63,674 nt of DNA from a virus (Duplodnaviria > Caudoviricetes), in IMG/VR virus record IMGVR_UViG_3300048839_000884, positions 1 to 63,674 of that record; one strand, written 5' to 3'. The notes beneath the pieces were generated by a model. It worked only from the letters and a program-made list of their open reading frames with translations, was not told where the DNA came from and did not search any database. The position numbers and the translations under genes were made by a program. Shown piece after piece: positions 39,478 through 52,138 of this stretch. Within the stretch, counting starts at the first letter, position 1, and the number at the start of each line of letters is the position of its first letter.

Positions 39478-39493
39478 GGATCCCTCCTGTTGG

Positions 39494-40270
39494 TCAGGCT
39501 GACTGCATCACGCGGCGGAGCGCGCCGCGGGTGTGCTCGTACATCGCGGCGACGATGGCCTCGCTCATCGTTTCCTGAAACCGCGGCTTCCACTTCTTCC
39601 AGACGGCCTCGACGTCGGTCTTCGATTCCGCGACGTCGAGATCCATGAGGTAGGCGTCTTCGTCGGCGCGCTGCTCGGTCGTCAGCACGATCTCGGGCTC
39701 GCCCGGCACCTGCGGCTCGCCCGGCCGCTCGTCTCGCTCCTGCGGCAGCGGATCCTCCCGCGGCGGCGGCGGCGGCCGGCGGGGCGGCTGGCGCACGGGT
39801 GGCGGCGCCGGCGGCGCCCGCCGTGGCAGGCTCGGCTCCGGCCGCCGGTCGTCGTAGGCGGCGCCGATGTCCGCGTCCTCGTCGCTGGCCACGCCCAGCG
39901 CCACGCAGGCGGCGTAGCGGCGCGCGTAGGTCAGGTTGCCGCCGATCTGCTGCATGGCGGCGCCCGCCTGCCCGGCCGGCATCCGGCCGGCGTCGATCAC
40001 TCCGCCGCCCCGGTGCAGGATGCGGGTGCAGACGACGAGGCCGCCGTTCTGCGTGATCTCGACCGACTGCGCGAGCGCGAGCCCGTGCTTGGCCAGCACC
40101 GGCAGCGCCACGGCGAGGACGTCGGCGATGTCGGCGTACTTGTAGCTGTAGCCCTGCCGCCCGTCCTTGCCCGGCACCTTCGCCTCCTTGTTCTTCGGGA
40201 TCGCCGGCACCTCGCCCTGAAAGGCCGACAGGGCGGCGTAGGCTTCGGCGAGCGGGTCACCGGCGGACAT
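39494..40270 (-). CDS. erf: ERF-family ssDNA annealing protein
   Basis: YKYADIADV..LAKHGL..QQIGGNLTYARRYA..LGVASDED. Confidence 0.85.
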   Translation of the reverse strand: MSAGDPLAEAYAALSAFQGEVPAIPKNKEAKVPGKDGRQGYSYKYADIADVLAVALPVLAKHGLALAQSVEITQNGGLVVCTRILHRGGGVIDAGRMPAGQAGAAMQQIGGNLTYARRYAACVALGVASDEDADIGAAYDDRRPEPSLPRRAPPAPPPVRQPPRRPPPPPREDPLPQERDERPGEPQVPGEPEIVLTTEQRADEDAYLMDLDVAESKTDVEAVWKKWKPRFQETMSEAIVAAMYEHTRGALRRVMQSA

Positions 40271-41219
40271 CGGCGACCTCCTCGATCTCGACGCCGTCGA
40301 CGACGAGCCCGCGCTTCACGTCCGCCTCGACCAGCCTCTTGAGCACGTCGACGAAGGCCGGCTCCATCCGGTAGCGGGCGATCACCTTGTCCATGTCGAC
40401 GATGCGCGGGATGCGCTTGATCCCGACCGACGACGCGCGGCCGGTGACGGTCTGGATCCGCTGCGGCAGGATCTCCGGCGCCGGCTCCGGGGTGGGCTCC
40501 ACGGGCTCTGGCGCGGGCGCTGACGCCCGTTCCGCTTCGGCGGCCCTCCGGGCCTCCTCCTCCGCAAGGCGCCGCTGGCGGGCCTCCTCCTCGCGCTGTG
40601 CGCGGAGCTTGGCGGTCATGTAGGCGTCCAGCATCGCCTTAAGCGAGGCGTCGGCGGTCTTCGACCGGGCGATCAGCGGGCGAAAGTGCTCGTCGACCGC
40701 CTGCCCGGCGCGCAGGTGCGGTTCCTTGCGCTCCGAGCGCAGCTTGTCCAGCTTCGACCCGATCTTGCCGATGGACGAGCGCAGGCCGGCCACCTTCGTG
40801 GCCTCCTCGTCGGTCCGGATCTCCTCGTAGCGCGCCGCGGCGACCTCAAGCTCGATCAGGTTCTCGACCAGCAACGTCTCCTCGTCGACCGTCTCGGCGT
40901 TCCGGCGCACGACGGTGGCCGCCGCCTCGTCGACGTCCGGCCACTCGCCGGTCTCCATGCGCCGCTCGTAGACGAAGTGCGCTATCGGATGCCGGCAGGA
41001 CCGCTGGAAGATCGACCAGACCCGGTCCGGGTCGCAGGTCGGTTCGTTGTGGTCGACCTGCGCCCACATCGTCCCGTCGTCTTCCTTCCAGATCGCCACC
41101 GCGGACGGCAGTCCGTCGCGGTTGTTCCGCCGGTAGTAGCCGATGTGCGGCTCGCCTTCATGAACGGGCATGTCTTCGCCGGCGAGCGAGCGCCGCCAGT
41201 ACGTCCAGTCCGCTGTCAT
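40257..41219 (-). CDS. Hypothetical coiled-coil protein adjacent to ERF
   Basis: CAGGAGGG RBS; RKEPHLRAGQAVDEHF..VDGVEIEE pattern. Confidence 0.7.
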   Translation of the reverse strand: MTADWTYWRRSLAGEDMPVHEGEPHIGYYRRNNRDGLPSAVAIWKEDDGTMWAQVDHNEPTCDPDRVWSIFQRSCRHPIAHFVYERRMETGEWPDVDEAAATVVRRNAETVDEETLLVENLIELEVAAARYEEIRTDEEATKVAGLRSSIGKIGSKLDKLRSERKEPHLRAGQAVDEHFRPLIARSKTADASLKAMLDAYMTAKLRAQREEEARQRRLAEEEARRAAEAERASAPAPEPVEPTPEPAPEILPQRIQTVTGRASSVGIKRIPRIVDMDKVIARYRMEPAFVDVLKRLVEADVKRGLVVDGVEIEEVADVRR

Positions 41220-41243
41220 GCTTCCCTCCTGTGCCGAAGCAGC

Positions 41244-41275
41244 ATCTTGCACCGGCTTCACCGACGTGTCAACAT
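41244..41275. promoter_or_regulatory. Overlapping divergent sigma70-like promoters
   Basis: - strand TTGACA-17-CAAGAT; + strand TTGCAC-17-CAACAT. Confidence 0.55.
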
Positions 41276-41297
41276 GCGCTCAACACAGGAGGCGACC

Positions 41298-41741: not shown

Positions 41742-42016
41742 AGCCGCAGCAGATGGAAGCGTTCGAGCCGAAGGAGACCGGCGAGGTGGTGGCCGGCGCC
41801 GAGATCAAGCAATTCGTCGAGCGGGTCGAGCGGCTGGCCGAGGAGAAGAAGGCGATCAGCGACGACATTCGGGACGTCTTCGCCGAGGCGAAGGGGCGTG
41901 GGTTCGACGTCAAGGCGCTCCGGACGATCATCCGCCTACGCGCCAAGGAGCCGCACGAGCGCGAGGAGGAGGAGGCGATGGTCGACCTCTACAAGTCGGC
42001 GCGCGGGATGCGCTGA
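41738..42016 (+). CDS. gapR: GapR-like (DUF2312) DNA-binding protein
   Basis: IKQFVERVERLAEEKKAISDDIRDVFAEAKGRGFDVKALRTIIRLR..EEEAMVDLY. Confidence 0.9.
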   Translation: MKPQQMEAFEPKETGEVVAGAEIKQFVERVERLAEEKKAISDDIRDVFAEAKGRGFDVKALRTIIRLRAKEPHEREEEEAMVDLYKSARGMR

Positions 42017-42420
42017 TGCTCCGCATCCCCCGCCACCAGCAGGCGGCGCCGCCGCGCGAGGACGAGATCCAGCGAAGCATCGTGTCGCTCCTCACCGTCG
42101 TCCTGCGTCGCGATGTCATCATGTTCCATCCGGCCAACGGGGGCAGTCGGCACGGCGTTGAGGCGGCGAAGTTCAAGGGGCTCGGCGTCGTGCCGGGGGT
42201 GGCGGATCTCATCTTCCTCGCGGACGGTCGTGGGTACGCGATGGAGGTGAAGCGACCGAAGCTCGGGCGCCAGTCGCCCAGCCAAGAGACGTTCGAGGCC
42301 CGGTGCATCGGTACGGGCATCCCGTACCGGATCGTCACCAGTGCAGAGGAGGCGCTGCAATGCGCGAGGGATTGGGGATTGGTGAGGGCGACGCTGCCGG
42401 CGTCCCCATCACGGGACTGA
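42016..42420 (+). CDS. VRR-NUC domain nuclease
   Basis: EDEIQ..FHPANGG..GVVPGVADL..MEVK..QSPSQETF. Confidence 0.85.
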   Translation: MLRIPRHQQAAPPREDEIQRSIVSLLTVVLRRDVIMFHPANGGSRHGVEAAKFKGLGVVPGVADLIFLADGRGYAMEVKRPKLGRQSPSQETFEARCIGTGIPYRIVTSAEEALQCARDWGLVRATLPASPSRD

Positions 42421-42617
42421 GCGAATGCACCTGCCGCTGGCCGCTGTGGCCGGTGGTGCGGCGCCGGATCCGCTTCGAGGAAATCCGGTACTGCGGCCGG
42501 GCGGTGTCTCCCGCCCGCGCCTATTGCGAGCAGCATGACGCGGTCGCCCATGGCCGGGCGGCCCTCGACGACGTCGACTTCCGCGTCGGCGACGAGGTGC
42601 TGCATGACGAGGAGTAG
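42360..42617 (+). CDS. GcrA C-terminal-domain-like protein
   Basis: AGAGGAGG RBS; GLSECTCRWPL..YCG..AYCEQH. Confidence 0.7.
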   Translation: MREGLGIGEGDAAGVPITGLSECTCRWPLWPVVRRRIRFEEIRYCGRAVSPARAYCEQHDAVAHGRAALDDVDFRVGDEVLHDEE

Positions 42618-42801
42618 GCTTCCCAGCCTCGTCGAGACGAGGGACGGGCTTGCCCTGATGATCTCCCGCGCCGAGCGCGCGGGTGACACCGGCCGGGTGG
42701 CGATGATCCACGCGGCCGACATCGACATCCTGCGGTCCGCTTGGCACCGGCTTCTCGAAGTCGAGGCGCAGCAGATCCGTGACAGATTGCGTGGCCGTTA
42801 G
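42604..42801 (+). CDS. Hypothetical protein
   Basis: GAGGTG RBS; fills operon. Confidence 0.5.
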   Translation: MTRSRLPSLVETRDGLALMISRAERAGDTGRVAMIHAADIDILRSAWHRLLEVEAQQIRDRLRGR

Positions 42802-42824
42802 ACGGCGAAATTTGGAGGGACACC

Positions 42825-43577
42825 ATGTCGAGCATCGGACCAGTCGAGCAAGCCGCACGCGCCCGCCGGCAGCAGCTTCGCGCCAAGTTCTTCCCCGACC
42901 GGGAACACCTCATCGCCCGGTCGCGTCACAGAGCCTCACCGCACCCGGTCGACGTCGTTCAAGGCTGCGTCCTGATGGAGATGGCCGAGGAGCCCGAGGC
43001 CCCAAAGGTCACCGAGGTGGAGGCGATGATCGTCCCGCCGGTCGGCATGGACGTAACCCCGGAGGTGCTGTCCTTCGTCGGCTCCTATCCCGTCACGATG
43101 TACCTGCACGAGCCGACCACGAAGCGCAGCGCGAAGGCGATCATCAAGCTAACAGCCGCGGCGCACGGGTTCCGCGTCGATGCCTTGGCCGGCCCGCGCC
43201 GACAGAAGGATCTCGTCTTCGCGCGCCACGAGGCGATATGGCGCGTCGCGATGGCCTGCCCGCACCTGAGCCTCCTAAGCATCGGCCGGCTGATCGGGAA
43301 CCGCGACCACACGACGATCCTGCACGCGATCCACGCCTACGACGAGATACTGCGCGCGCAGGGCCGCACCGCCTTCGTGGCGCAGTGCATAGAATGGGGC
43401 GGGCTCACAGCCGACGAAGCGGAGCGGACCTTCGACAGCGGCGCGCAGGCGCTCCGGCGAGAGCGGGTGAAGGCGAAGGCCGACCGCGACGCGATGAAGA
43501 AGCGGCTGGAGCGCGAGGCGCAGCGGGCCGCCCGTGCTGTGGAAAACGGGGACAGCGCGAAGGGGGGTGCGAAGTGA
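42825..43577 (+). CDS. Protein with DnaA C-terminal (domain IV) HTH
   Basis: LAGPRRQKDLVFARHEAIW..SLLSIGRLIGNRDHTTILHAI. Confidence 0.85.
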   Translation: MSSIGPVEQAARARRQQLRAKFFPDREHLIARSRHRASPHPVDVVQGCVLMEMAEEPEAPKVTEVEAMIVPPVGMDVTPEVLSFVGSYPVTMYLHEPTTKRSAKAIIKLTAAAHGFRVDALAGPRRQKDLVFARHEAIWRVAMACPHLSLLSIGRLIGNRDHTTILHAIHAYDEILRAQGRTAFVAQCIEWGGLTADEAERTFDSGAQALRRERVKAKADRDAMKKRLEREAQRAARAVENGDSAKGGAK

Positions 43578-43741
43578 TCGGCAAGCGCACGGCGGCGAGA
43601 CTGCGTCGCGAAAAGATCAACGAAAACAAGGTCTGGCGCCTCATACACGACCAGAAGATCGCCGGGATCGAAAACGAGGTCGTGACCCGGCTGATCGAGA
43701 ATCGGAAAAGCCCAATGGAATCAAAGGGGACGCGCCAATGA
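43574..43741 (+). CDS. Small protein paralogous to the N-terminus of the next gene
   Basis: GTGA and ATGA overlaps; QKIAGI motif shared. Confidence 0.55.
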   Translation: MIGKRTAARLRREKINENKVWRLIHDQKIAGIENEVVTRLIENRKSPMESKGTRQ

Positions 43742-43886
43742 ACCGCCGGGCTTTATCGAGGCAGCGGAAGGAAAACGTCAATGAAATCAAGCGATGGTTG
43801 CTTCTTCTGGAGCAGAAGATCGCCGGGATCGACGAAAAAGTGGCACAGAAACGGGTCCGGCGGGGCGAAAAGCCCAATGAAATCAG
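43618..43886. repeat. Degenerate 161-bp tandem duplication with CAATGAAATCA-like motifs; candidate replication origin
   Basis: cagaagatcgccgggatcga at 43652 and 43813; motifs at 43618, 43713, 43779, 43875. Confidence 0.7.
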
Positions 43887-44640
43887 CGTCCCGTGCCCAA
43901 AGCGCCTCGCGCGCACATACGTATGGGTGCCCGCGCGCGTAGTTGTTTCTTTCTCCTCACTACGTTCGGAGGATAGGGATCCACCTTCGGTGTCTCCCTC
44001 TCCTCCTCCACTTCGTTCAGAGGTTAGCCTCGCTTCGCTCGGCCCGCTCGCTTCGCTCGCTGACCCCCTGACTGATTTTTCAAATCCTTCGGATTGTGAA
44101 GAAATCAGTCCTCCCCCGCTGCCGGCGGCCGATCCGGAACCCGGTCCGACCCGGACATCGCGGGTTTCGGGGAAAAGTCGGATCGGGCTTGCGTCTCCCG
44201 GCTGGGATGTGTTCTGGTCGGTCTACCCCAAGCGGGCCGGCCGAGTGGCGGCGGAGCGGGCGTGGCGGGTGGTGGTCGAGCGTGGCGGCGTCGACCCGGA
44301 GATGGTCATCGAAGCGGCCCGGCGGTACGCGGCCAGCCGGGTGAGGCAAGACCCGAGGTACACGCTCCACCCGGCATCGTGGATCCGGGGACGGCGGTTC
44401 GAGGACGAGGAGGGATCCGGCAGTGAACAGCATCGTGGCGCATCGTGGTCCTTCTCCGGACGAGACCTCCTTGAGGCGGTCCGTCGCGGTCCTTCTGGCG
44501 GAGATCCAGTCCCGGCCGGGAGTGCGCGTCCCGCCGATCAGCCGGCCGCTGACGGACGCGGAGCGCGAGTGGGCGGACGCCCGGCTGCGGGAGATCCGCG
44601 CGGACCTCGCGCCGAAGGAGTTCGACGTCCCGGTCGCTGA
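43738..44640 (+). CDS. Replication initiator-like protein
   Basis: FWSVYPKRAGRVAAERAW..HPASWIRGRRFEDE C-terminal motif; low-complexity repeat-rich middle. Confidence 0.7.
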   Translation: MNRRALSRQRKENVNEIKRWLLLLEQKIAGIDEKVAQKRVRRGEKPNEISVPCPKRLARTYVWVPARVVVSFSSLRSEDRDPPSVSPSPPPLRSEVSLASLGPLASLADPLTDFSNPSDCEEISPPPLPAADPEPGPTRTSRVSGKSRIGLASPGWDVFWSVYPKRAGRVAAERAWRVVVERGGVDPEMVIEAARRYAASRVRQDPRYTLHPASWIRGRRFEDEEGSGSEQHRGASWSFSGRDLLEAVRRGPSGGDPVPAGSARPADQPAADGRGARVGGRPAAGDPRGPRAEGVRRPGR

Positions 44641-45142
44641 CGCCTTCGTGGACTTCTTCATGGCTTTCGAGAGGATCCCGTTCGAGGTGGCCGAGCGCGT
44701 GGTCCGGGTCTATTGGGACGCGGTCGCGGAGTTCCCGGAGTGGGCGACGCTCGCCGTGCTGCGCGAGTTCCGGACGGGCGTGATCCAGCATGACGGCCAT
44801 CGTGCCCCGTCGGCTGCACAGGTCGCGCAGGCGCTCCGCGCCCGTGTCGCCCCGCTCAGGGCCGAGGCGTTCGCGCTGGAGCGGCTTCTGGCGGCGCGTC
44901 CCGTGGATGAGATTCGCGGCGAGGTGCGGGCCGTGGCGCCCGCTCCGGCGCCCGTGCTGCCGTTGCGGCGTGACCCGGCGAAGGCGAGTGGGGCGGAGGC
45001 CACGCCTCGCTCGCCTGTGGTCTTCGTCCCGCGCGACGACGAGCGTTTCCCGGACCTCGCGGCGCGCTGGAGCGCCGAGGCCGGCAAGGTGATCCCGGAC
45101 GACGGCGAGGGGTGGCTGTTCCCCTCGCGCTGGGTCGTCTGA
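44423..45142 (+). CDS. Putative replication accessory protein (helicase-loader position)
   Basis: GGAGGGATCC RBS + GTG; YWDAVAEFPEWA..APSAAQV; follows initiator. Confidence 0.6.
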   Translation: MNSIVAHRGPSPDETSLRRSVAVLLAEIQSRPGVRVPPISRPLTDAEREWADARLREIRADLAPKEFDVPVADAFVDFFMAFERIPFEVAERVVRVYWDAVAEFPEWATLAVLREFRTGVIQHDGHRAPSAAQVAQALRARVAPLRAEAFALERLLAARPVDEIRGEVRAVAPAPAPVLPLRRDPAKASGAEATPRSPVVFVPRDDERFPDLAARWSAEAGKVIPDDGEGWLFPSRWVV

Positions 45143-45421
45143 CGAGATGGTCGCGCGCGGGGCCGATCCCTCCTTCGCGCTCGACCGGGGTGGCGTCGCC
45201 TCGAAACGCCACCCCACCCTTCCCCCTCCCGGCGGCGGCTTCGCAACCCTCTCCCGTTCAGGCGCCGGGGAATCGAGCTACGGCGCGCATCATCTGCCCC
45301 GCGCGGACCGGGCTTGATCGGGGCGGCGGCCGGTTTGTCTCCATGGGCCGGTCGCCGTTCTTTCGTCTCGGGCACGGGACGATCCCCCGGAGGTTCCTCC
45401 TCCCCCTCCGGGCAAACTGAA

Positions 45422-45444
45422 AGGGCCGGCTACGCGCCGGCCCT
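45422..45444. terminator. Hairpin at end of early operon (probable terminator)
   Basis: AGGGCCGGC-TACGC-GCCGGCCCT; short U run follows on the - strand; convergent junction. Confidence 0.55.
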
Positions 45445-45615
45445 CCTTTCTTCCTCGATGGTCTTCATCGTTGCGACCACGGTCTCCGGGATCCGGATCG
45501 TCCCGGTCTCCCATCGCCAGAGCGTGATCCGGTCCCGGCTGAGCGCCCGCGCGGCGGCGCTCCTGTTGCCGGCAAAAACCCTATCCATCCACGCGCGGAA
45601 ATCCTTCGGGCTCAT
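45430..45615 (-). CDS. Small XRE/Cro-like HTH protein (61 aa)
   Basis: GAGGTG RBS; MSPKDFRAWM..RSAAARALSRDRITLWRWETGTIRIP. Confidence 0.75.
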   Translation of the reverse strand: MSPKDFRAWMDRVFAGNRSAAARALSRDRITLWRWETGTIRIPETVVATMKTIEEERRAGA

Positions 45616-45617
45616 GG

Positions 45618-45980
45618 TCACCTCTTGAGGAAGGGGATGACGTCCCCTCCGTGCTCCCGGCTCACGCCGATTGCCCGCGCGACCTTCCGGCGGACCTCCG
45701 TCGATCCGGGCGGGACGTAGGATCCGGGTTCGACCTTGAGCCCGAGGTTGCGCGACAGGCGCACGAGCGCGTGCCACGTCAGGTCGACGTCGACGATGGC
45801 CGGCACGATCCGCCGGGTGTCGGTCGCCGTGCAGGCCGGCACGGCGGCGAGCGTGTCGTCTCCCCGCTTGACGACCACGTAGAGGGCCGCTGCCGGCTCT
45901 CCACCGGTCGCGGCGGGGTCGAGCGGCTTGGCCAGCAGTTCGAGTCTCACGGGCTCGCTGCGCGTCCGGAATGGCCACAT
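45618..45980 (-). CDS. Hypothetical early protein
   Basis: GGGAGG RBS; in operon. Confidence 0.6.
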   Translation of the reverse strand: MWPFRTRSEPVRLELLAKPLDPAATGGEPAAALYVVVKRGDDTLAAVPACTATDTRRIVPAIVDVDLTWHALVRLSRNLGLKVEPGSYVPPGSTEVRRKVARAIGVSREHGGDVIPFLKR

Positions 45981-45982
45981 GA

Positions 45983-46279
45983 TCAGACCTCCCCCTCGCC
46001 GGCCGAGCCGTCGACGTACCGGAGATAGCTCACGCGGCCCTCGCCGGCGTTCCCCGGTCCATTCCAGCCGTCGAACTTCGGCAATCCCTGCGTGACCGGG
46101 TGCGCGGCGCCCGACCGGACCGTGCCGACGCGGGCGGAGCCGCGCGCGGCCATCGCCTTTTCGAGATCGGCGACGGCGACCTCGACGCGGACATCCCGGA
46201 CGCCGGGGATCCGCTCGATCAGCACGGCGGTGGTGGCCGGCGCGACCCGGCCAAGGAAGGCGTAGCGTGACGTTCCCAT
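45983..46279 (-). CDS. Hypothetical early protein
   Basis: GAGGAGGGAACC-ATG; MGTSRYAFLG... Confidence 0.65.
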   Translation of the reverse strand: MGTSRYAFLGRVAPATTAVLIERIPGVRDVRVEVAVADLEKAMAARGSARVGTVRSGAAHPVTQGLPKFDGWNGPGNAGEGRVSYLRYVDGSAGEGEV

Positions 46280-46296
46280 GGTTCCCTCCTCTCGCC

Positions 46297-46503
46297 TCAC
46301 GGCGCGTCCCAATGCACGTTCCGGAGCGCCTGCGCGGCGCGCTCGATGCCGGCCAGCCATTCCGTGTAGGCGGCGCCCTGCGGCCCGTCCTGCCAGCGGA
46401 TCGGCTGGCGGTTCAGCCATTGGCGGCCGTGCCCCAGCGACATCTCCAGCGCCTCCAACGTCTCGTCGAGCAGCTTCGCCGTGTGCCTGTCCAGACTCTT
46501 CAT
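46297..46503 (-). CDS. Hypothetical early protein
   Basis: AGGAGGGATCC-ATG. Confidence 0.7.
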   Translation of the reverse strand: MKSLDRHTAKLLDETLEALEMSLGHGRQWLNRQPIRWQDGPQGAAYTEWLAGIERAAQALRNVHWDAP

Positions 46504-46577
46504 GGATCCCTCCTATGCGGGCGGGTGGTGCCCGAGAAGGCCGGCGGATCGCACCCGCCGGCCGGCTCTCGCATCAC
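46501..46577 (-). repeat. Intergenic stop-to-start element, divergent copy
   Basis: GUGAUGC..hairpin..GGGCACCACCCGCCCG..AGGAGGGAUCCAUG; shares central hairpin with 47850 copy. Confidence 0.75.
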
Positions 46578-46873
46578 TCGTAGCGCGGGCGGAACTCCGG
46601 GAAGTGCTTCGGCGCCTTCCCGACCGGATGCACCTCAAGGCAGTAGCGGCCTCCGGAGTAGGCCATGGACGAGAGCGGGCGCAGGCTGCGGTTCCGGTCC
46701 TGCATCCGCTCCAGCAGGTCGCCCATCCGCCGGCAGGCCCGTGCGGCCTCGCCCTTGGTCTTCCAGCGGCGCCTGAGGGTCCGCCGAAGGTCGCCGTAGG
46801 TGAACCACCAGCCGCCCTCCTCCGGGCCGCCGTAGCCCATGCCTAGCTCGTAGACGTGGATTGCGTAGCGCAT
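46574..46873 (-). CDS. Hypothetical early protein (YGGPEEGGWW motif)
   Basis: GAGGAGGG RBS, TGATG coupling. Confidence 0.7.
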   Translation of the reverse strand: MRYAIHVYELGMGYGGPEEGGWWFTYGDLRRTLRRRWKTKGEAARACRRMGDLLERMQDRNRSLRPLSSMAYSGGRYCLEVHPVGKAPKHFPEFRPRYE

Positions 46874-47145
46874 CACGACGCCCTCCTCTCGCCGGCGTAG
46901 TAGCGCCGCCACGACCCGCCCATTTCGTCGAAGTCGCGGATCGAGACGTGGTCGCGGGCGGTGCGCTTGCGCGCCGGGTGCTCGGCGATGACGACGTAGC
47001 GCATCTCCTCGCGGTCGAGCGCGGCGCGCTGGATCGCCTCCGCCTGATCGAGCGTGTCGCAGCGGACGGACAGGCGGGAGACCCCGCCCTTCGCCTCGCC
47101 CCAGCCGCTCAAGAACCTGTCGACCATGTTGACGTAGAAGCTCAT
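46873..47145 (-). CDS. Hypothetical early protein
   Basis: GGAGGGATCC-ATG; YVNMVDRFLSGWG motif. Confidence 0.75.
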   Translation of the reverse strand: MSFYVNMVDRFLSGWGEAKGGVSRLSVRCDTLDQAEAIQRAALDREEMRYVVIAEHPARKRTARDHVSIRDFDEMGGSWRRYYAGERRAS

Positions 47146-47191
47146 GGATCCCTCCGGGTGGTGGCGCCGGGCAACCCGCCCGACGCCCTCG

Positions 47192-47220
47192 ACTATACAC
47201 GAAACTGTTGCATATGCAAC
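47192..47220 (-). promoter_or_regulatory. Early sigma70-like promoter with palindromic operator
   Basis: TTGCAT-16-TATAGT; perfect palindrome GTTGCATATGCAAC at 47207-47220 over the -35. Confidence 0.75.
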
Positions 47221-47224
47221 GGTG

Positions 47225-47434
47225 TCACCAATCCTGCACCCGCACCTCGACGGTCAGACCGGGGCGGAGAAGGGTCCGGGGGACGGTGAACTCCAGCCCG
47301 GAGGCTGTCGCCATGACGGCGCGCGAGCGCGGCCACGTCTCGCGGACGTAGCCGATGGCTTCGTGCAGCGTCGGGAACTCCGCGACGCGGTTCATGGTGG
47401 TGGGCGTGAAGCCGCGAAGCACGACGGTGGTCAT
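47225..47434 (-). CDS. Hypothetical early protein
   Basis: GGAGGGATCCAG-ATG, ATGA overlap. Confidence 0.65.
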   Translation of the reverse strand: MTTVVLRGFTPTTMNRVAEFPTLHEAIGYVRETWPRSRAVMATASGLEFTVPRTLLRPGLTVEVRVQDW

Positions 47435-47655
47435 CTGGATCCCTCCGAGCGGATGGCGCGCCGCAGGTGCGCGATGAAGGACTGCCGGCTCCCGTAGTCG
47501 TGCCGGCAGGCGGGCGAGTGTGAGACGACCGCGACGAGGCGGCCGTCGATCCGGACCTGTAGGTGCTTGCCCCCGACCCGCACGTCGACGCGGTCGCCAA
47601 GCGGATCGAGGATAGCGCGCACGCGCGGGTCCGCGAGGATGCGGTGCCGCGCCAT
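47431..47655 (-). CDS. Hypothetical early protein
   Basis: TGATG coupling; MARHRILADPR...GGKHLQVR. Confidence 0.6.
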   Translation of the reverse strand: MARHRILADPRVRAILDPLGDRVDVRVGGKHLQVRIDGRLVAVVSHSPACRHDYGSRQSFIAHLRRAIRSEGSR

Positions 47656-47852
47656 CAGTCCTCGTCCTTCTCGGTCGCCGCAAAGGACAGGATGCCGATG
47701 CGGTTCCCGTTGAAGTCGCGAAGCGGCGTGTAGATCACCTCGCCCCCGGATTCGAGGTGGGCAAGCGCGACGCGGAGGACGCTCATCGCCACTTCGCGCG
47801 GCATGGCGGTCGCGTCGGCGCCGTACGACCGGACGTCGATCAGAAGTCTCAT
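47655..47852 (-). CDS. Hypothetical early protein
   Basis: Start at end of repeat element; LRDFNGNRIG motif. Confidence 0.7.
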   Translation of the reverse strand: MRLLIDVRSYGADATAMPREVAMSVLRVALAHLESGGEVIYTPLRDFNGNRIGILSFAATEKDED

Positions 47853-47926
47853 GGATCCCTCCTGTATGGAGCACTGGCGCTCCGGGAGGCCGGCGGATCG
47901 CACCCGCCGGCCGACCGCTGCGTCAG
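47850..47926 (-). repeat. Intergenic stop-to-start element
   Basis: CTGACGCAGCGG-hairpin-CCGGAGCGCCAGTGCTCC-ATAC-AGGAGGGATCCATG. Confidence 0.9.
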
Positions 47927-48162
47927 GCGAGACGGCGAACTTCGGCGATCAGGTCCGGGCGAAGGCGCAGGTGATCCACGCCGACACCGACCGGCTCCCG
48001 GACGACGGCGCCAAGCACCCCGTCGGTGATCCACGCTCGGCCGCCGTAGGCAGTCACGCAGCCCGAATCAGACAGCGTGAAGGTGCCTATCCCCTTCGGG
48101 CAGGCAAATTCCACCTCGATGCCGAAGAAGCCCGGGCGGGCCGAAATGATTCTGATGCTCAT
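47923..48162 (-). CDS. Hypothetical early protein
   Basis: Exactly bounded by two repeat elements. Confidence 0.75.
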   Translation of the reverse strand: MSIRIISARPGFFGIEVEFACPKGIGTFTLSDSGCVTAYGGRAWITDGVLGAVVREPVGVGVDHLRLRPDLIAEVRRLA

Positions 48163-48236
48163 GGATCCCTCCATCGTGGAGCACTGGCGCTCCGGGAGAG
48201 GCAGGGCACGCGGCCCTGCCCCGACCGCTGCGTCAG
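48160..48236 (-). repeat. Intergenic stop-to-start element
   Basis: Same consensus; ~60 bp identical to the 48753 copy. Confidence 0.9.
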
Positions 48237-48493
48237 GCGAACGGGAACGGGCCGAAGCCGTCCGGCCCGAAAAGCCCCCCGCGCGGAGGCTTCCGCCCGA
48301 CGCACAGGTAGGCCCCGCGCCAAATCTGGACCGCCTCTTTCCGGGTGACGGCGCGGGCGCGGCGGTTGCTCTCCATGGCGACGAAGGCGTCGCGCTCCTC
48401 GCGGGTGGCGAACCGGGCGACCTCCCAAGTGTTCGCGAATCCCCGGTTTCCCCGGTCTAGGTCGGCGTAGATGTTGTAGGTAGCGTAGAACAT
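48233..48493 (-). CDS. Hypothetical early protein
   Basis: Bounded by repeats; GFANTW..FATREERDAFV. Confidence 0.75.
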   Translation of the reverse strand: MFYATYNIYADLDRGNRGFANTWEVARFATREERDAFVAMESNRRARAVTRKEAVQIWRGAYLCVGRKPPRGGLFGPDGFGPFPFA

Positions 48494-48567
48494 GGATCCC
48501 TCCTGTATGGAGCACTGGCGCTCCGGGAGAGGCCCCGCCGGCGGCGAGGCCCCGACCGCTGCGTCAG
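48491..48567 (-). repeat. Intergenic stop-to-start element
   Basis: Same consensus, different central hairpin. Confidence 0.9.
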
Positions 48568-48755
48568 GCGAGCCCCAACGCCTGCGTGAAGCCGTGCAGC
48601 GCGTCGTGCGTCAGGTCGGCGCGGGTGACGTCGCCGTAGACCCGGTAGACGCGGAGGCGCCCGGTCGCCGGGTCGTACTTGCTGTCGAAGTGGATGAGCA
48701 CCCCATCCTCGCGGGTGACCGGCTCGTAGGTGTAGGTGATGCGCTTGTCTGCCAT
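48564..48755 (-). CDS. Hypothetical early protein
   Basis: Bounded by repeats; MADKRITYTYEP... Confidence 0.75.
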   Translation of the reverse strand: MADKRITYTYEPVTREDGVLIHFDSKYDPATGRLRVYRVYGDVTRADLTHDALHGFTQALGLA

Positions 48756-48830
48756 GGATCCCTCCTGTGGTGGAGCACTGGCGCTCCGGGAGAGGCAGGG
48801 CACGCGGCCCTGCCCCGACCGCTGCGTCAG
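48753..48830 (-). repeat. Intergenic stop-to-start element
   Basis: Same consensus. Confidence 0.9.
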
Positions 48831-49150
48831 CCGCCGATGTGGCGCATCGCCTCCTCCCACGCCGGCCGCGCGCCCCGGCAGGGCCGATAGCTGCGGCAGG
48901 GCGCAGCCCCGCGCACGTCGGCGCCGGCGAAGACCGGGCGCGACCCAAAGGTCTGGATCACGCGCCAGATGACGACGGCGGCGTCGCAGTCCTCCTCGGC
49001 GTAGAGGGTGCCGTCGGGGCCGACGTAGCTGTACCGGGTGAGCATGTCCTCGGTGAGCCCGATTTCGTCGGCGAGCGCCGGCCCGACCATGACCCAGCCG
49101 TGCGCGGGGTCGGTGACGTGGGTGAGGCGGATGGTGGTGGTGGTGTTCAT
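48827..49150 (-). CDS. Hypothetical early protein (DPAHGW..YAEEDCDA)
   Basis: Bounded by repeats. Confidence 0.75.
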   Translation of the reverse strand: MNTTTTIRLTHVTDPAHGWVMVGPALADEIGLTEDMLTRYSYVGPDGTLYAEEDCDAAVVIWRVIQTFGSRPVFAGADVRGAAPCRSYRPCRGARPAWEEAMRHIGG

Positions 49151-49229
49151 GTCGGATCCCTCCGGGTGCTGGAGCATGGCGCTCCGGAGGACGCCCCGCC
49201 CGTAGGCGAGGCGCCCGCCGCTGCGTCAG
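49148..49229 (-). repeat. Intergenic stop-to-start element
   Basis: Same consensus; central hairpin closed by cUACGg. Confidence 0.85.
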
Positions 49230-49564
49230 CCGGCCATCTCGGGGTCGACTTCGGCGAGGAGCGCGTCCAGCGCCGGAGCGTTGGCGGTGCAATCGCTGAT
49301 GACGTCCGCGCCATTGCCGTGGATGAGCCAGACCCGGCCAATCTGCGCCGGGGCGACCGGGTCGCGGAAGTTGAGGGTCGTCTCGTCGGTCGCGCAGACT
49401 TCGGCCGTGATCGCTTCATAGTCGGTCGACCGCTTGAGCGACCATTCCTCGCCGTCGAACACGCTGATGGTCCAGCCACGGCCGAGCGCGGCGCGGATGA
49501 GGCGGTCGACGATAGCGCGCTCGGTGTCGAGGTGCGGGGCGAGGTAGTGTTCGGGGTAGGCCAT
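49226..49564 (-). CDS. Hypothetical early protein
   Basis: AAGGAGGGATCC-ATG; SVFDGEEW..LIHGNG.DVISD. Confidence 0.75.
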   Translation of the reverse strand: MAYPEHYLAPHLDTERAIVDRLIRAALGRGWTISVFDGEEWSLKRSTDYEAITAEVCATDETTLNFRDPVAPAQIGRVWLIHGNGADVISDCTANAPALDALLAEVDPEMAG

Positions 49565-49605
49565 GGATCCCTCCTTGGTGCTGCCGGGCGACGCCCGGTC
49601 CGAGA

Positions 49606-49635
49606 GTTATAGCGCCAGAGCGTTGCACATGCAAC
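49606..49635 (-). promoter_or_regulatory. Early sigma70-like promoter with near-palindromic operator
   Basis: TTGCAT-17-TATAAC; GTTGCACATGCAAC at 49622-49635. Confidence 0.75.
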
Positions 49636-49657
49636 ACCATGGCGCTTTTCTGACAGG

Positions 49658-49999
49658 CTAGATCGCCCTTGGGATGTTGGCGAGGATCGCCTGCCGGACC
49701 TTGTCGACGCCGGCGTTGGTGACGTCGTCCAGAACCTTGCTCTCGACGACGCGCCGGCCGCCGTCGGGGCGGACGCGGATCGTCAGGCTTGCGACATGGC
49801 CGCACATGCCGGCCATGGTGGCGGCGCCCATGACCGCGCCGACGATGGCGATGGTCATCTCCTCGCGGGTGCGGCACAGGACCGGGTGCGCGTCCAGCAG
49901 GTCGACAATCTCGTCGCTGCGCCGCGCGGTCGTCGCGTTGACCCACATCCAGAAGTCGTCGCCCGTGCCATCGGCGTTGACGTTGATGTTGATGCTCAT
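49658..49999 (-). CDS. Hypothetical early protein
   Basis: Start at end of repeat element; MSININVNADG... Confidence 0.7.
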   Translation of the reverse strand: MSININVNADGTGDDFWMWVNATTARRSDEIVDLLDAHPVLCRTREEMTIAIVGAVMGAATMAGMCGHVASLTIRVRPDGGRRVVESKVLDDVTNAGVDKVRQAILANIPRAI

Positions 50000-50070
50000 G
50001 GATCCCTCCTGTGTGAAGCACTGGCGCTTCGGAAGGCCCCGCCCGTAGGCGAGGCCGGCCGCTGCGTCAG
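49997..50070 (-). repeat. Intergenic stop-to-start element (GAAGCG/TGCTTC variant)
   Basis: Compensatory variant; cUACGg hairpin. Confidence 0.9.
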
Positions 50071-50441
50071 CCCCAGCGGTAGTCCCCGGCGCCGGCCCAA
50101 GCCGCGAAGTTCCCGTCCTCCATCGCCGCGAGGCGCCGATCCGCCGCGTTGCGCTCCAGCTCGCCCATCCGGTCGTCGGTGACGACCCGCTCGCCCTTGC
50201 AGGCGCCGCAGACCACGTCGTAGTCACCACGCCAGTAGGATTCCTCGAAGTCCGGGTCGTCGTCGAAGTCCTCGGCCGTGAGCCCGTTGCAGTCGATGGA
50301 CGGGTTGACCGTGGTCCCCTCACCGTCGCAGACCGGGCAGACCATGTACTTGCGGCGGTGCGGGCGGCGGTGCGCCGGCTCCTCGTCGTCCTCGGTGCGG
50401 CACTCGTCGTCCGGGTGGACGGAAATGATCGTGATGCTCAT
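50067..50441 (-). CDS. Early protein with DnaJ-type CxxCxGxG zinc finger
   Basis: CPVCDGEG...CGACKGE; bounded by repeats. Confidence 0.75.
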   Translation of the reverse strand: MSITIISVHPDDECRTEDDEEPAHRRPHRRKYMVCPVCDGEGTTVNPSIDCNGLTAEDFDDDPDFEESYWRGDYDVVCGACKGERVVTDDRMGELERNAADRRLAAMEDGNFAAWAGAGDYRWG

Positions 50442-50514
50442 GGATCCCTCCTGTGGTGAAGCACTGGCGCTTCGGGCGACCGGGGCGCTCGGCCCCGGCC
50501 CACCGCTGCGTCAG
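50439..50514 (-). repeat. Intergenic stop-to-start element (GAAGCG/TGCTTC variant)
   Basis: Same consensus. Confidence 0.9.
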
Positions 50515-50891
50515 GCCGAAGCCCGCTCAAGCGCCGCGTCCATCCGGGCGATGGCGGCCCGCGCCTCCTCCGCGTCCATCGCGTTCATGATCGCCTTGAA
50601 CACATCGGCCCGGCTGACCCCGATCATCGCCGGCTTGATCCCGGCAAGGGCACCCGCCGCCTGCTCCAGAGCATGAGCCGCCGTGGAGGCGACGTCCGCC
50701 GCAGCCTGCGCGGTCCGGAAGTCCTTGGCATATCCGCACTGCGTGAAGGTCAGGACGTAGTCGGCGTCGGTCCGCTCGACCCCGGCATGGTCCATCATGC
50801 GGACCCAGACGGAGATCAGGAAGTCGTCGCTGTCCGCGCTCCGGATAACCGAGAGTTCAAGGTCGATGCGGATGTCGATGGGCTTGGTCAT
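50511..50891 (-). CDS. Hypothetical early protein (first of array)
   Basis: GGAGGGATCCGACC-ATG; stop inside repeat. Confidence 0.7.
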   Translation of the reverse strand: MTKPIDIRIDLELSVIRSADSDDFLISVWVRMMDHAGVERTDADYVLTFTQCGYAKDFRTAQAAADVASTAAHALEQAAGALAGIKPAMIGVSRADVFKAIMNAMDAEEARAAIARMDAALERASA

Positions 50892-50949
50892 GGTCGGATC
50901 CCTCCGGTCTGGCGGGCGATCCCCTATGGACCCACCACGCCGTGCCGAT

Positions 50950-50978
50950 AAGATGGCATGTCTCGGCATCCCGTGCAA
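50950..50978 (-). promoter_or_regulatory. Probable promoter heading the early array
   Basis: TTGCAC-17-CATCTT; carries one TGCAAC operator half-site. Confidence 0.5.
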
Positions 50979-51004
50979 CACGGTACAAATGACAGGGGGA
51001 CCAT

Positions 51005-51436
51005 ATGGGCAAGAGCAAGGGCAAGCGCAGGACCGCGCGCATCCCGGAAGTCGACGCCGCACTGGCCGCAGCACCGCGCCGCAGGGCGCCCAAGGCTCCA
51101 GCACCCGCACCAGAGGACATGCCGCGCTCGCGCGCAAAGGGCGTGGCCGCCGCGCAGGGCGACGCCGTCCCCGCGCCCGAGCCCGCCGGCCCGTGGACGT
51201 GGATCCACTACGTCATCAGCTTCGGCCAGTACGCACCCGCCCAGCACGCCGGCCGCTTCGCGCAGGGCCGCATCACCACGCCCGCCGACGTCGTCAACGC
51301 GCAGGAGTCGCTCCTCGCGATGGAGCGAGAGCACTTCGTCAAGGCCAACGCGGGCGTAACAGACCAGCAGCAGGTGGCGCAGGTGGCCGAGGCCATGCGG
51401 GTCACCGTGGCATCGTGGCAGGAGGGGGGCAAATGA
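51005..51436 (+). CDS. Hypothetical protein
   Basis: AGGGGGA RBS; basic N-terminus. Confidence 0.65.
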   Translation: MGKSKGKRRTARIPEVDAALAAAPRRRAPKAPAPAPEDMPRSRAKGVAAAQGDAVPAPEPAGPWTWIHYVISFGQYAPAQHAGRFAQGRITTPADVVNAQESLLAMEREHFVKANAGVTDQQQVAQVAEAMRVTVASWQEGGK

Positions 51437-51550
51437 CATATGCACCGCGCACATGGGACAGGCAGGGGGGAGGGAGGGATAGATCAACCCTCCGGGCATA
51501 TGCCCACCGGGCGGGCGTTTGCTCATGGTTAGAAACGGATCAACCCCACC

Positions 51551-52138
51551 ATGGCTGACGACGGGGCGGCTGGCGCCCGTAAAGGCAGCAACCCGACGGG
51601 TGTCCCCAAGTCGAGCGACAAGCGCGCCAAGCAGCGGATAGACGGCATCCGCCGGCGCGGGAGTGTCGAGCACCTGAAGATCGAGACGTACAAGGACCGG
51701 CATTGGGTGCCCGAGCCGGCAACCATGCTGGCGATCAAGGAGTCCTTGCGAATACCTGACGCGATGGAGTTGACCTACGCGGAGGACGCCGAGGCGGTGA
51801 TCGAGAACAACATGCGCTACCACGCGCTCGTGGGTAAGCGGATCCTCGACGCGGCGGCGGCGATGATCGAGGATCGCACGCCGACGAGGGACGCGCTTTT
51901 CCTGATCGACGAGGGACTTCGGCACCGCAAGATCGCGCAGGCGGCGGCGGAAATCCTCCTCCCGTACCGCAAGGCGCGGAAGGCGCCGGAGAAGGCCGTG
52001 CCCGTGGACGAGCCGCAGGCGGCCATGGGGACGGAGATCGAGGCCATCGTTCGGGACCAGATCGCCGTGCAGATCGGCGAGACCTTCCTCAAGGCCAAGC
52101 GCCGGGACCAGACCGACGAAAAGCCCCCGTCGAAGTGA
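51551..52138 (+). CDS. Candidate terminase small subunit
   Basis: Basic G-x-P N-terminus (NPTGVPKSSDKR), helical, AAAEILLPYRKAR resembling the AA..APY.HP.L motif of TerS-like proteins. Confidence 0.4.
   Translation: MADDGAAGARKGSNPTGVPKSSDKRAKQRIDGIRRRGSVEHLKIETYKDRHWVPEPATMLAIKESLRIPDAMELTYAEDAEAVIENNMRYHALVGKRILDAAAAMIEDRTPTRDALFLIDEGLRHRKIAQAAAEILLPYRKARKAPEKAVPVDEPQAAMGTEIEAIVRDQIAVQIGETFLKAKRRDQTDEKPPSK

What the first reader, a model, noticed from the sequence alone, without database searches (positions are those of the whole stretch)
46501..50514. Repeated two-state RNA element linking each stop codon to the next start: candidate ribosome-triggered translation switch
Seen: eight ~75-nt spacers (46501, 47850, 48160, 48491, 48753, 49148, 49997, 50439). 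On the mRNA they read C-UGA(stop)-CGC-AG-CGG-[variable GC hairpin]-CCG-GA-GCGCCAG-UGCUCC-N5-7-GGAGGGAUCC-AUG. Fold A: CUGACGC pairs with GCGCCAG, with an A-C mismatch at the A of the stop codon; this closes a long hairpin and leaves CUCC free to pair with GGAG of the Shine-Dalgarno. Fold B: GGAGCG pairs with UGCUCC, which excludes A and frees the SD. Both folds show compensation. Two copies change to GAAGCG/UGCUUC, and CUUC can still pair with GGAG. The 46501 copy is rewritten to GUGAUGC/GCACCAC with the same A-C mismatch plus CGGGC/GCCCG. The central hairpins vary but keep G-U pairs and cUACGg loops on the mRNA strand. Genes directly behind promoters (starts 47145, 49564, 50891) keep the SD but lack the element. 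Inference: a ribosome reaching the upstream UGA melts fold A and switches on the downstream gene, giving portable, distance-independent coupling. Alternatives are RNase III processing sites (as between T7 early genes) or recombination sites. I know of no named family with this architecture, but did not search.
Basis: partly seen in the sequence, partly recalled or inferred. Interest (0 to 1): 0.92.

Follow-up and report, generated by a model that had tools for sequence, protein, structure and literature searches.

The report
Repeated hairpin leaders between phage early genes
An uncultivated high-GC phage separates eight of its small early genes with copies of one RNA hairpin that starts at the upstream stop codon and ends in a very strong ribosome-binding site, a layout like the RNase III processing signals between phage T7 early genes, though its function is untested.

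Summary
The window is a complete 63.7-kb phage record. A covariance model finds exactly eight copies (63-102 bits; next hit 23.6), all on the minus strand between small unrelated ORFs. The long hairpin is strongly supported: 98% of 148 cells pair, 11 of 19 pairs change on both sides, and 0 of 500 shuffles reach this. The stop codon sits at the same place in the 5' arm in 8 of 8 copies. A competing 5-bp hairpin B exists in all eight, in three sequence versions. Promoter-proximal genes carry "5' hairpin, A/C spacer, same SD", which is the layout hairpin B would give. The T7 0.4/0.5 spacer has the same anatomy and is the model's best hit in T7 early DNA (15.3 bits). My best reading (0.4) is a T7-like processing and leader module. 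It also resembles the SAS/ESAS repeats of cluster K mycobacteriophages. The ribosome-triggered switch remains possible (0.2). I found no homologous copies elsewhere and no Rfam match. Verdict: a new variant of a known kind, of moderate interest.

The parts
50439..50516 (-). Element copy 1. It runs from the last sense codon and UGA of ORF 50511-50891 to the ATG of ORF 50067-50441. Hairpin B is GAAGC/GCUUC.
   Evidence: CM 82.3 bits; fold
49997..50072 (-). Element copy 2, upstream of ORF 49658-49999. It has a C(UACG)G loop and hairpin B GAAGC/GCUUC.
   Evidence: CM 82.3 bits
49148..49231 (-). Element copy 3, upstream of ORF 48827-49150. One G of the 3' arm is missing, the minimum-energy fold is fold B, and 3 nt lie between the SD block and the ATG.
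   Evidence: CM 63.2 bits. A relative's copy has the full arm.
48753..48832 (-). Element copy 4, upstream of ORF 48564-48755. Its hairpin is identical to that of copy 6.
   Evidence: CM 98.8 bits
48491..48569 (-). Element copy 5, upstream of ORF 48233-48493.
   Evidence: CM 95.3 bits
48160..48238 (-). Element copy 6, upstream of ORF 47923-48162.
   Evidence: CM 97.4 bits
47850..47928 (-). Element copy 7, upstream of ORF 47655-47852. Its upper hairpin is identical to that of copy 8.
   Evidence: CM 101.8 bits
46501..46579 (-). Element copy 8, the divergent one, upstream of ORF 46297-46503. Its arms are GUGAUGC/GCACCAC and hairpin B is CGGGC/GCCCG.
   Evidence: CM 85.3 bits
46297..50891 (-). Array of 14 small ORFs (63-126 aa) in three apparent transcription units. 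Junctions are an element (8), ATGA-type or GTGATG overlaps (3), or promoter regions (2).
   Evidence: No paralogy (best E 0.12). Only PHROGs of unknown function match.
49565..49657 (-). Promoter-like region P2 (TTGCAT, 17 nt, TATAAC, with palindrome GTTGCATGTGCAAC) and its leader. The leader is a 5' GC hairpin, spacer CAGCACCAA and the SD block.
   Evidence: Read. Not called by the promoter scan.
47146..47224 (-). Promoter-like region P3 (TTGCAT, 16 nt, TATAGT, with palindrome GTTGCATATGCAAC) and its leader. The leader is a 9-bp predicted 5' hairpin (10 bp if the G just 5' of the folded stretch pairs), spacer ACCACCC and the SD block.
50892..51004 (-). Divergent control region ahead of ORF 50511-50891. 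The SD block is present but not the element.
47437..47446 (-). SD block GGAGGGATCC lying inside the end of ORF 47431-47655, ahead of the overlapping start at 47434. There is no hairpin element.
39478..39487 (-). SD block ahead of ORF 38977-39477, 7 nt after the Erf stop codon. This junction has no hairpin.
39494..41219 (-). Erf-like annealing protein (39494-40270) and exonuclease (40257-41219). They are the phage's own recombination module and could act on the repeated arms.
   Evidence: PHROG hits 1.4e-29 and 5.4e-16

Best explanation
The eight elements are cis-acting parts of the early polycistronic mRNA. Each is a portable leader module made of four parts:
1. An irregular hairpin of about two helical turns. 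Its conserved 5' arm contains the upstream stop codon. It has two 2x2 internal loops around a 3-bp helix and a variable 9-12-bp top.
2. A weaker alternative 5-bp hairpin B, which uses part of the 3' arm.
3. A 5-7-nt A/C-rich spacer.
4. A ten-base Shine-Dalgarno block.

Most likely they work like the RNase III processing signals between the early genes of phage T7.
- A host double-strand-specific endonuclease cuts in the loop-helix-loop region and divides the operon RNA into single-gene units.
- Once the 5' arm is gone, hairpin B forms at or next to the new 5' end.
- The downstream gene then has the 'terminal hairpin, A/C spacer, strong SD' leader that the promoter-proximal genes of the same phage have from the start.

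The conserved arms are also ready-made homology at which genes can be gained, lost or exchanged.

Shown: the copies, both helices, the stop-codon placement, the leader parallel and the anatomical match to a T7 spacer.
Inferred: the cleavage itself, its position, and any effect on stability or translation.
For: - There are exactly 8 copies.
- The long hairpin has strong covariation. It has 18-21 paired positions plus two 2x2 loops and one mismatch. That is about two helical turns. [quoted passage not shown] They also say internal loops can limit cleavage to one strand.
- Hairpin B is present in 8 of 8 copies and is 4.8-7.6 kcal/mol weaker than the lower half of fold A when the two are compared within a copy, except in the divergent 46501 copy, where the gap is 3.1. 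It is therefore conditional on loss of the 5' arm.
- The P2 and P3 leaders fold as a 5' GC hairpin, an 8-9-nt A/C spacer and the same SD.
- In the T7 0.4/0.5 spacer the UGA lies in the 5' arm of the lower stem. Above it are a 10-bp upper stem and loops, and the SD follows the hairpin.
- That spacer is the best hit of my model in 6.6 kb of T7 early DNA: 15.3 bits, aligned over the full length from stop to AUG.
- The elements fill all 8 long promoter-less junctions of the array. Other junctions are overlaps.
- The flanking ORFs are unrelated to each other, so the repeat is kept for itself.
Against: - There is no direct evidence of cleavage, and the reads laid were contigs only.
- The model hit only 1 of the T7 early spacers, weakly, and with rough E-values.
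- That the T7 spacers are RNase III sites, and where they are cut, is recalled by me. The record I fetched does not annotate them.
- Wobble pairs do not decide the strand. There are 10 G.U cells on the mRNA strand. The A.C mismatch conserved in 8 of 8 copies would be a G.U pair on the other strand.
- A loop-helix-loop can also give RNase III binding without cleavage (PMC1540722, passage).
- Fixed placement of the stop codon is not required by a processing site.
- The host is unknown.
Confidence: 0.4

Rival explanations
1. Ribosome-triggered two-state switch. A ribosome terminating at the embedded UGA melts the lower stem and hairpin B forms. Initiation on the next gene is favoured for a short time, so translation is coupled across about 70 nt.
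For: - The stop codon is at the same position of the 5' arm in 8 of 8 copies, including the rewritten 46501 copy.
- The A.C mismatch and two purine-purine loops are conserved and keep the lower stem weak.
- B and the lower stem exclude each other, and both show compensation.
- The RNA-unfolding model of coupling is established, with examples at +52 and +62 nt spacing (PMC12548453, passages).
Against: - Modelled SD exposure does not rise from fold A to fold B. It is the same in 6 of 8 copies, up in 1 and down in 1.
- With the 5' part blocked it is equal or lower in 7 of 8 copies.
- The proposed CUCC:GGAG mask is 4 bp, against a ten-base SD block. It appears in 1 of 8 minimum-energy folds.
- A T7 spacer also has its stop codon in the stem, so that feature is not special to a switch.
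Confidence: 0.2
2. Start-associated module without processing or switching. It would be a passive structured spacer (mRNA stabiliser, insulator between cistrons, protection of untranslated RNA) or the binding site of an unknown phage or host factor. The same was left open for the SAS/ESAS repeats of cluster K mycobacteriophages.
For: - GGAGGGATCC occurs 14 times against 0.33 expected. 13 of these are in one orientation, 0-6 nt before starts of non-structural genes, and 8 of the 13 have the inverted-repeat extension.
- This is the SAS/ESAS pattern described in section 15 (part 1 of 2) of PMC3203893.
Against: - A passive hairpin does not explain the conserved mismatch, the two conserved loops, or hairpin B kept through three sequence versions.
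- No candidate binding protein was identified.
Confidence: 0.2
3. DNA-level element. It would be a recombination site or small mobile palindromic unit (attC-like, REP-like, or a PeSL-like shuffling joint) whose main role is moving gene cassettes.
For: - The arms are conserved around a variable centre, and upper hairpins are shared between otherwise different copies (47850 with 46501; 48753 with 48160).
- The ORFs between the copies are unrelated.
- A relative's contig joins 47654 to 48564 and so lacks exactly three element-plus-ORF units (909 nt).
- Three ORFs share their first 10 nt after the ATG.
- The phage has Erf and an exonuclease.
Against: - That indel leaves no hybrid element at the joint. 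It is an ATGA overlap with 4 nt of shared letters, so it is not element-by-element exchange.
- The record has no tyrosine recombinase and no Y1 transposase.
- No row of the alignment contains GTT or AAC, so the attC core as I recall it is absent.
- No promoter-like site was called.
- No copies were found in viral, metagenome or genome contigs.
Confidence: 0.12
4. Partial transcription terminators without a U tract, which would give a falling gradient of expression along each operon.
For: GC-rich hairpins directly follow each ORF. PeSL stem-loops act as terminators in T4-type phages (PMC2839356, section 13).
Against: - No U run follows any copy. The terminator scan found only the operator palindrome at 47207-47220.
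- The base of the hairpin is weak and interrupted, unlike a terminator stem.
Confidence: 0.05

Closest known systems
RNase III processing signals between the early genes of phage T7 (R0.3, R0.5, R1, R1.1, R1.3; names and cleavage recalled, not from a call)
   Same: - Repeated, related hairpins fill 60-80-nt spacers between small early genes.
- Each has an upper stem of about 10 bp, an internal loop region and a lower stem.
- In the 0.4/0.5 spacer the UGA lies in the 5' arm of the lower stem and the SD follows the hairpin.
- That spacer aligns over the full length of my model.
   Different: - There is no sequence kinship: the T7 spacers are AU-rich and these are 71-76% G+C.
- Here the lower half is conserved and the top varies.
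- A conserved alternative hairpin B and an invariant ten-base SD block are added.
- Cleavage is not shown here.
Start-associated sequences (SAS) and extended SAS (ESAS) of cluster K mycobacteriophages (Pope et al. 2011, PMC3203893)
   Same: - An asymmetric conserved block containing the SD lies a few nt before start codons.
- It occurs in many copies, in one orientation, only among non-structural genes, and at long intergenic gaps.
- About half the copies have imperfect inverted repeats with a variable spacer just upstream.
- One stray copy lies in the opposite orientation.
- The function is unknown.
   Different: - The sequence is different.
- Here the inverted repeats are about 12 nt and enclose a further 9-12-bp hairpin instead of a 4-13-bp spacer.
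- The upstream stop codon is part of the repeat.
- A competing helix is conserved.
PeSLs (promoter-early stem-loops) of T4-type phages (Arbiol et al. 2010, PMC2839356)
   Same: - The composite motif runs from the stop codon of one small gene to the SD and start of the next.
- It contains a stem-loop with G-T pairs.
- It is concentrated among small ORFs of unknown function.
- It is linked to gain and loss of genes.
   Different: - PeSLs contain a strong sigma-70 promoter. None is seen in these elements.
- The one indel seen here is not an exchange between two elements.
Translational coupling by RNA unfolding (for example rpmI-rplT and phage f1 genes VII/IX; review PMC12548453)
   Same: The upstream ribosome must open one arm of a structure that lies between two cistrons, with spacing of tens of nt.
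   Different: In the known cases the structure covers the downstream ribosome-binding site. Here the SD is outside both helices, and its modelled exposure does not change.
Integron attC sites
   Same: Imperfect inverted repeats with conserved unpaired positions surround a variable centre, and they recur between single promoter-less ORFs.
   Different: - The core triplet is absent.
- There is no integrase.
- The element is fused to the SD and start of the next gene.

Membership tests
T7-type RNase III processing signal | Lies between cistrons of an early polycistronic unit | tested here: met
   8 of 8 copies lie between co-oriented small ORFs downstream of promoter-like regions.
T7-type RNase III processing signal | Irregular hairpin of about two helical turns with an internal loop | tested here: met
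   18-21 pairs plus two 2x2 loops and one mismatch. Covariation. The criterion is taken from passages of PMC1540722.
T7-type RNase III processing signal | Cut by RNase III in vivo or in vitro | not testable with these tools
   Only contigs could be laid.
T7-type RNase III processing signal | Sequence or profile similarity to the T7 sites | tested here: inconclusive
   Model R1 hits the 0.4/0.5 spacer at 15.3 bits (E 0.0058, rough). It hits no other T7 early spacer.
SAS/ESAS (cluster K mycobacteriophages) | Asymmetric conserved block with the SD, a few nt before start codons, many copies in one orientation | tested here: met
   14 exact GGAGGGATCC against 0.33 expected. 13 are on the minus strand, 0-6 nt before an ATG.
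SAS/ESAS (cluster K mycobacteriophages) | Confined to the non-structural part of the genome | tested here: met
   All 13 lie at 39478-50905, among small ORFs, Erf and the exonuclease.
SAS/ESAS (cluster K mycobacteriophages) | About half of the copies carry imperfect inverted repeats with a variable spacer just upstream | tested here: met
   8 of 13.
SAS/ESAS (cluster K mycobacteriophages) | Shares the cluster K consensus sequence | tested here: not met
   The 13-bp consensus printed in PMC3203893 differs from the block here. This is similar in kind, not a member.
PeSL | Contains a strong sigma-70-like early promoter | tested here: not met
   0 promoter-like sites in 45500-52000, and none seen by eye in the elements.
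PeSL | Differences between related phages arise by exchange between the motifs | tested here: inconclusive
   One indel was seen. One end lies at the start of an element and the other at an ATGA overlap, and no hybrid element is left.
Integron attC | Conserved core sites at both ends (consensus recalled) | tested here: not met
   No GTT or AAC in any of the 8 aligned rows.
Integron attC | Integron integrase (tyrosine recombinase) beside the array | tested here: not met
   PF00589: 0 matches in the whole record, while the control rang in 14 of 14 genomes.
RNA-unfolding translational coupling | The upstream ribosome's path overlaps one arm of the structure | tested here: met
   UGA lies inside the 5' arm in 8 of 8 copies.
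RNA-unfolding translational coupling | The structure masks the downstream ribosome-binding site until it is opened | tested here: not met
   Modelled SD exposure is unchanged in 6 of 8 copies. It is equal or lower in 7 of 8 when the 5' part is blocked. This is a model only.
REP/RAYT-type palindromic repeats | Y1 transposase partner, and many copies in the host chromosome | tested here: inconclusive
   PF01797: 0 matches in the record.

The most novel reading that the evidence does not exclude
The element is a portable, self-resetting coupling device. Each termination at the embedded UGA flips the spacer from the long hairpin to hairpin B. That licenses one round of initiation on the next gene by a route other than simple SD unmasking, for example hand-over of the terminating ribosome across the base of the hairpin. 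The same module is also the joint at which new genes are plugged into the early operon. The small release-factor-like ORF at 55995-56321 might act on these stop codons.
Probability: 0.12. Interest if true: 0.8.

Novelty: new variant of a known kind. Interest (0 to 1): 0.5.

Why it matters
Arrays of one repeated RNA module between small early genes recur in unrelated phages: the T7 RNase III sites, the SAS/ESAS repeats, the PeSLs, and several other uncultivated phages noted earlier in this scan. For most of them nobody knows what they do. This copy family is unusually easy to read. It has eight copies in one operon system, two competing helices each with compensatory changes, a stop codon fixed inside one arm, and internal controls, namely the same ribosome-binding block with and without the hairpin. 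That makes it a good test case for whether such modules are processing sites, coupling devices or exchange joints. It is also a possible source of compact parts for balancing expression in synthetic operons for high-GC bacteria.

Tried and rejected
- Rfam: 0 matches at gathering scores in the whole window. With E up to 1 on 46200-51000 there was one chance-level match (PhotoRC-I, 16.5 bits against a gathering score of 45).
- Homologous copies elsewhere: blastn of 46250-51000 against phage records gave no match. The viral contigs pattern scan gave 15 loci, all single matches without the other arm. The metagenome-contig scan gave 3 loci, none with a hairpin or the SD block.
- Relatives found by protein:
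  - The zinc-ribbon ORF 50067-50441 found 5 viral loci at 54-63% identity. All have lower G+C (0.41-0.54). The one I read (L030) has no such element.
  - ORF 49226-49564 found none.
  - Erf found 3 loci at 37-47% identity without comparable repeats.
  - The terminase is at most 29% identical to cultured phages.
  - ORF 48827-49150 has one homologue (48% identity) among 5.8 billion proteins. Its contig could not be fetched.
- Sequencing runs: no RNA holder was listed. The runs I laid are contigs and cannot show RNA ends. Joints with a side under 30 letters were set aside as unreliable.
- Readthrough or SECIS reading of UGA plus hairpin: rejected. The distance from UGA to ATG falls in all three frames among the copies (lengths).
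- Operator reading of the palindrome GGAGC-N6-GCTCC: judged unlikely, because the half-sites differ completely in the 46501 copy.
- Small proteins: no Pfam family above its cut-off, and only PHROGs of unknown function.
- Supplementary files of the papers were not opened. The ESAS alignments in the supplements of PMC3203893 might sharpen that comparison.

Full report
What the window is.
- The window is a whole virus record of 63,674 bases that CheckV rates as complete. Its G+C content is 0.685.
- It encodes a large terminase, a weak portal-like match (E 7.5e-07), an Erf-like annealing protein, an exonuclease and a 4445-aa ORF.
- Cultured phages are only distantly related. The terminase is at most 29% identical.
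- The finding lies in a leftward (minus-strand) block of 14 small ORFs of 63-126 aa at 46297-50891. None has a Pfam family above its cut-off. A few match PHROGs of unknown function.

- On the mRNA strand, each of the eight spacers reads in this order: last sense codon, UGA, conserved 5' arm, variable GC hairpin, conserved 3' arm, a short pyrimidine-rich stretch, a 5-7-nt A/C-rich spacer, GGAGGGAUCC, 0-3 nt, AUG.
- The motif counts far exceed shuffles.
- A covariance model built from the copies finds those eight at 63-102 bits and nothing else above 24 bits in the whole genome.
  - The spacers are 67-75 nt.
  - The UACG tetraloop is in 2 of 8 copies.
  - The 49148 copy has lost one G of its 3' arm.
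  - The three promoters were read by eye, and the pattern scan did not call them.

Structure.
- The long hairpin (fold A) has four tiers: a 7-position lower stem with an A.C mismatch at the A of UGA, a 2x2 purine-purine loop, a 3-bp helix, a second 2x2 loop, and a 9-12-bp upper stem.
- On the model-based alignment 98.0% of 148 cells form standard pairs and 11 of 19 pairs change on both sides. No shuffle out of 500 reaches these values, and sliding the partner by 1-3 columns drops pairing to 43.5-51.0%. That alignment was fitted to the structure, which favours it somewhat.
- The divergent 46501 copy changes two lower-stem pairs on both sides and keeps the A.C mismatch.
- Wobble pairs do not tell the strands apart. 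There are 10 G.U cells on the mRNA strand, but the conserved A.C would be a G.U on the other strand. Folding energies of the two strands are similar.
- I take the mRNA strand as the functional one because the element includes the stop codon, the ribosome-binding block and the start codon.

The second helix.
- Hairpin B (5 bp, loop of 5-7 nt) uses the last base of the 3-bp helix, the 3' side of the first loop and the first two bases of the 3' arm. It therefore excludes the lower half of fold A.
- It is present in all eight copies: GGAGC/GCUCC (5), GAAGC/GCUUC (2) and CGGGC/GCCCG (1).
- On fixed columns 34 of 40 cells pair. The six misses are in the two rows whose loop differs by one base, where the helix is shifted by one column.
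- Shuffling the 11-13-nt tail gives such a helix in 2-8% of trials per copy.
- Hairpin B is worth -6.4 to -8.8 kcal/mol and the lower half of fold A -11.5 to -14.0. In free RNA fold A wins, and B needs the 5' arm to be occupied or cut off.

- A ribosome with UGA in its A site must have opened the 5' arm, so transient formation of B after each termination is physically reasonable.
- The proposed consequence is not seen in the model. With A or B enforced, the probability that GGAGG is unpaired is the same in 6 of 8 copies, higher in B in one and lower in one.
- With the first 26 nt blocked it is equal or lower in 7 of 8 copies. The freed pyrimidine-rich descending strand can then pair with the SD.
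- The 4-bp CUCC:GGAG mask shows up in one minimum-energy fold of eight. It would be competing with a ten-base SD block.
- From memory, that block is almost fully complementary to the 3' tail of 16S rRNA. I did not test this.
- These are equilibrium models, so they weaken the switch idea without excluding it.

What points to processing.
- The two clear promoter-proximal leaders (P2, P3) fold as a GC hairpin placed where the transcript should begin, then 8-9 unpaired A/C-rich bases, then the same SD block. This is the layout 'hairpin B, spacer, SD'. It suggests that hairpin B is the 5' end structure of a downstream RNA once the 5' arm has gone.
- I folded the T7 early spacers from the fetched record. 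In the 0.4/0.5 spacer the UGA lies in the 5' arm of the lower stem. Above it are an internal loop region and a 10-bp upper stem, and the SD follows the hairpin.
- My model, built only from this phage, picks that spacer as its best hit in 6.6 kb of T7 early DNA. It aligns from the stop codon to the AUG at 15.3 bits. The E-value is rough, and the other T7 spacers are not hit.
- That these T7 hairpins are RNase III sites, and that the 0.4/0.5 site is cut on the 3' side of its loop, is recalled from the T7 literature and not from a call. Carried over through the alignment, the cut would fall at the first bases of hairpin B.
- Passages I read of PMC1540722 say that E. coli RNase III substrates typically span two helical turns. 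They add that internal loops can restrict cutting to one strand, leaving a protective 3' hairpin, and that a bulge-helix-bulge can allow binding without cutting.
- The phage has no RNase III gene of its own, so a host enzyme would be needed.

Relation to other repeated start modules.
- GGAGGGATCC occurs 14 times. 13 copies are in one orientation before starts at 39478-50905, 8 of them have the hairpin, and one stray copy lies on the other strand at 44409.
- This is the pattern Pope et al. described as SAS and ESAS in cluster K mycobacteriophages. They left the function open (PMC3203893, passages and part 1 of section 15).
- PeSLs of T4-type phages also run from stop codon to SD and start and include a stem-loop, but they contain a strong promoter (PMC2839356, abstract and section 13). 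None is seen here.
- Earlier notes of this scan describe similar hairpin-plus-SD arrays in other uncultivated phages. They gave me the SAS lead. I did not test those cases.

Evolution of the array.
- The 15 small proteins compared show no paralogy (best E 0.12), yet the element arms are nearly identical.
- Upper hairpins are shared between otherwise different copies: 47850 with 46501, and 48753 with 48160. Three ORFs share their first 10 nt after the ATG.
- Contigs of public runs hold relatives.
  - One 151-nt contig (X5, record 28) has 66 and 85 letters on the two sides. It joins 47654 to 48564 and so lacks 909 nt, which is exactly three element-plus-ORF units. The stop and start overlap (ATGA type) at the joint, with 4 shared letters.
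  - Another relative (X1 record 1 and X2 record 13, same study) carries the 49148 copy with both sides of one hairpin-B pair changed (GGAGC/GCUCC to GAAGC/GCUUC) and the missing G of the 3' arm present.
  - With the listed differences applied, that copy folds into the canonical fold A. The difference table was truncated.
- Genes therefore come and go in units of 'leader plus ORF', and copies exchange parts. The one indel seen is not an exchange between two elements.
- No integrase or Y1 transposase is present. The phage's Erf and exonuclease could promote exchange at the conserved arms. That last point is inference.

Verdict.
- The feature is real and strongly structured. As far as I could search, it is confined to this phage lineage.
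- It is best described as a structured intercistronic leader module.
- I put 0.4 on T7-like endonucleolytic processing that creates hairpin-B leaders.
- It is a new variant of known kinds, not a new category, and its function remains to be shown at the bench.

Noticed in passing
window 55995-56321 (+): A small ORF whose C-terminal half resembles release-factor domain 3, with GGW where GGQ is expected. The Pfam RF-1 match is weak (20 bits against a cut-off of 35, E 0.0007). Any link to the UGA-embedded hairpins is speculation.
   Followed up: partly
window 47207-47220 and 49622-49635 (-): Fourteen-base palindromes (GTTGCATATGCAAC and GTTGCATGTGCAAC on the mRNA strand) overlap the -35 region of the two clearest early promoters. 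They are probably operators of a phage regulator.
   Followed up: no
window 47654/48564: A contig of a relative (run X5, record 28) lacks 909 nt, which equals three element-plus-ORF units. It joins the two flanking genes by an ATGA-type overlap.
   Followed up: partly
window 50441, 49999, 48162 (starts, minus strand): Three otherwise unrelated ORFs begin with the same 10 nt after the ATG (proteins start MSI-I-). The repeat, or a past recombination joint, therefore reaches into the coding sequence.
   Followed up: no
window 49175-49177 (-): In the 49148 copy the lost G creates an ATG inside the 3' arm, in frame with the downstream ORF. Gene callers may therefore report 116 aa (as in P0001) instead of 107 aa starting behind the SD block.
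   Followed up: no
window 44409-44418 (+): A single exact GGAGGGATCC in the opposite orientation, not before a start codon. It recalls the single reverse SAS copies of cluster K phages.
   Followed up: no
window 16839-30176 (+): One ORF of 4445 aa takes up about a fifth of the genome. I did not analyse it.
   Followed up: no
elements, mRNA strand, e.g. 47874, 48184, 48515, 48778: Inside the 3' arm, GGAG followed 5 nt later by GUG looks like a weak start site. It opens out-of-frame ORFs of 38-147 aa and is probably incidental.
   Followed up: no
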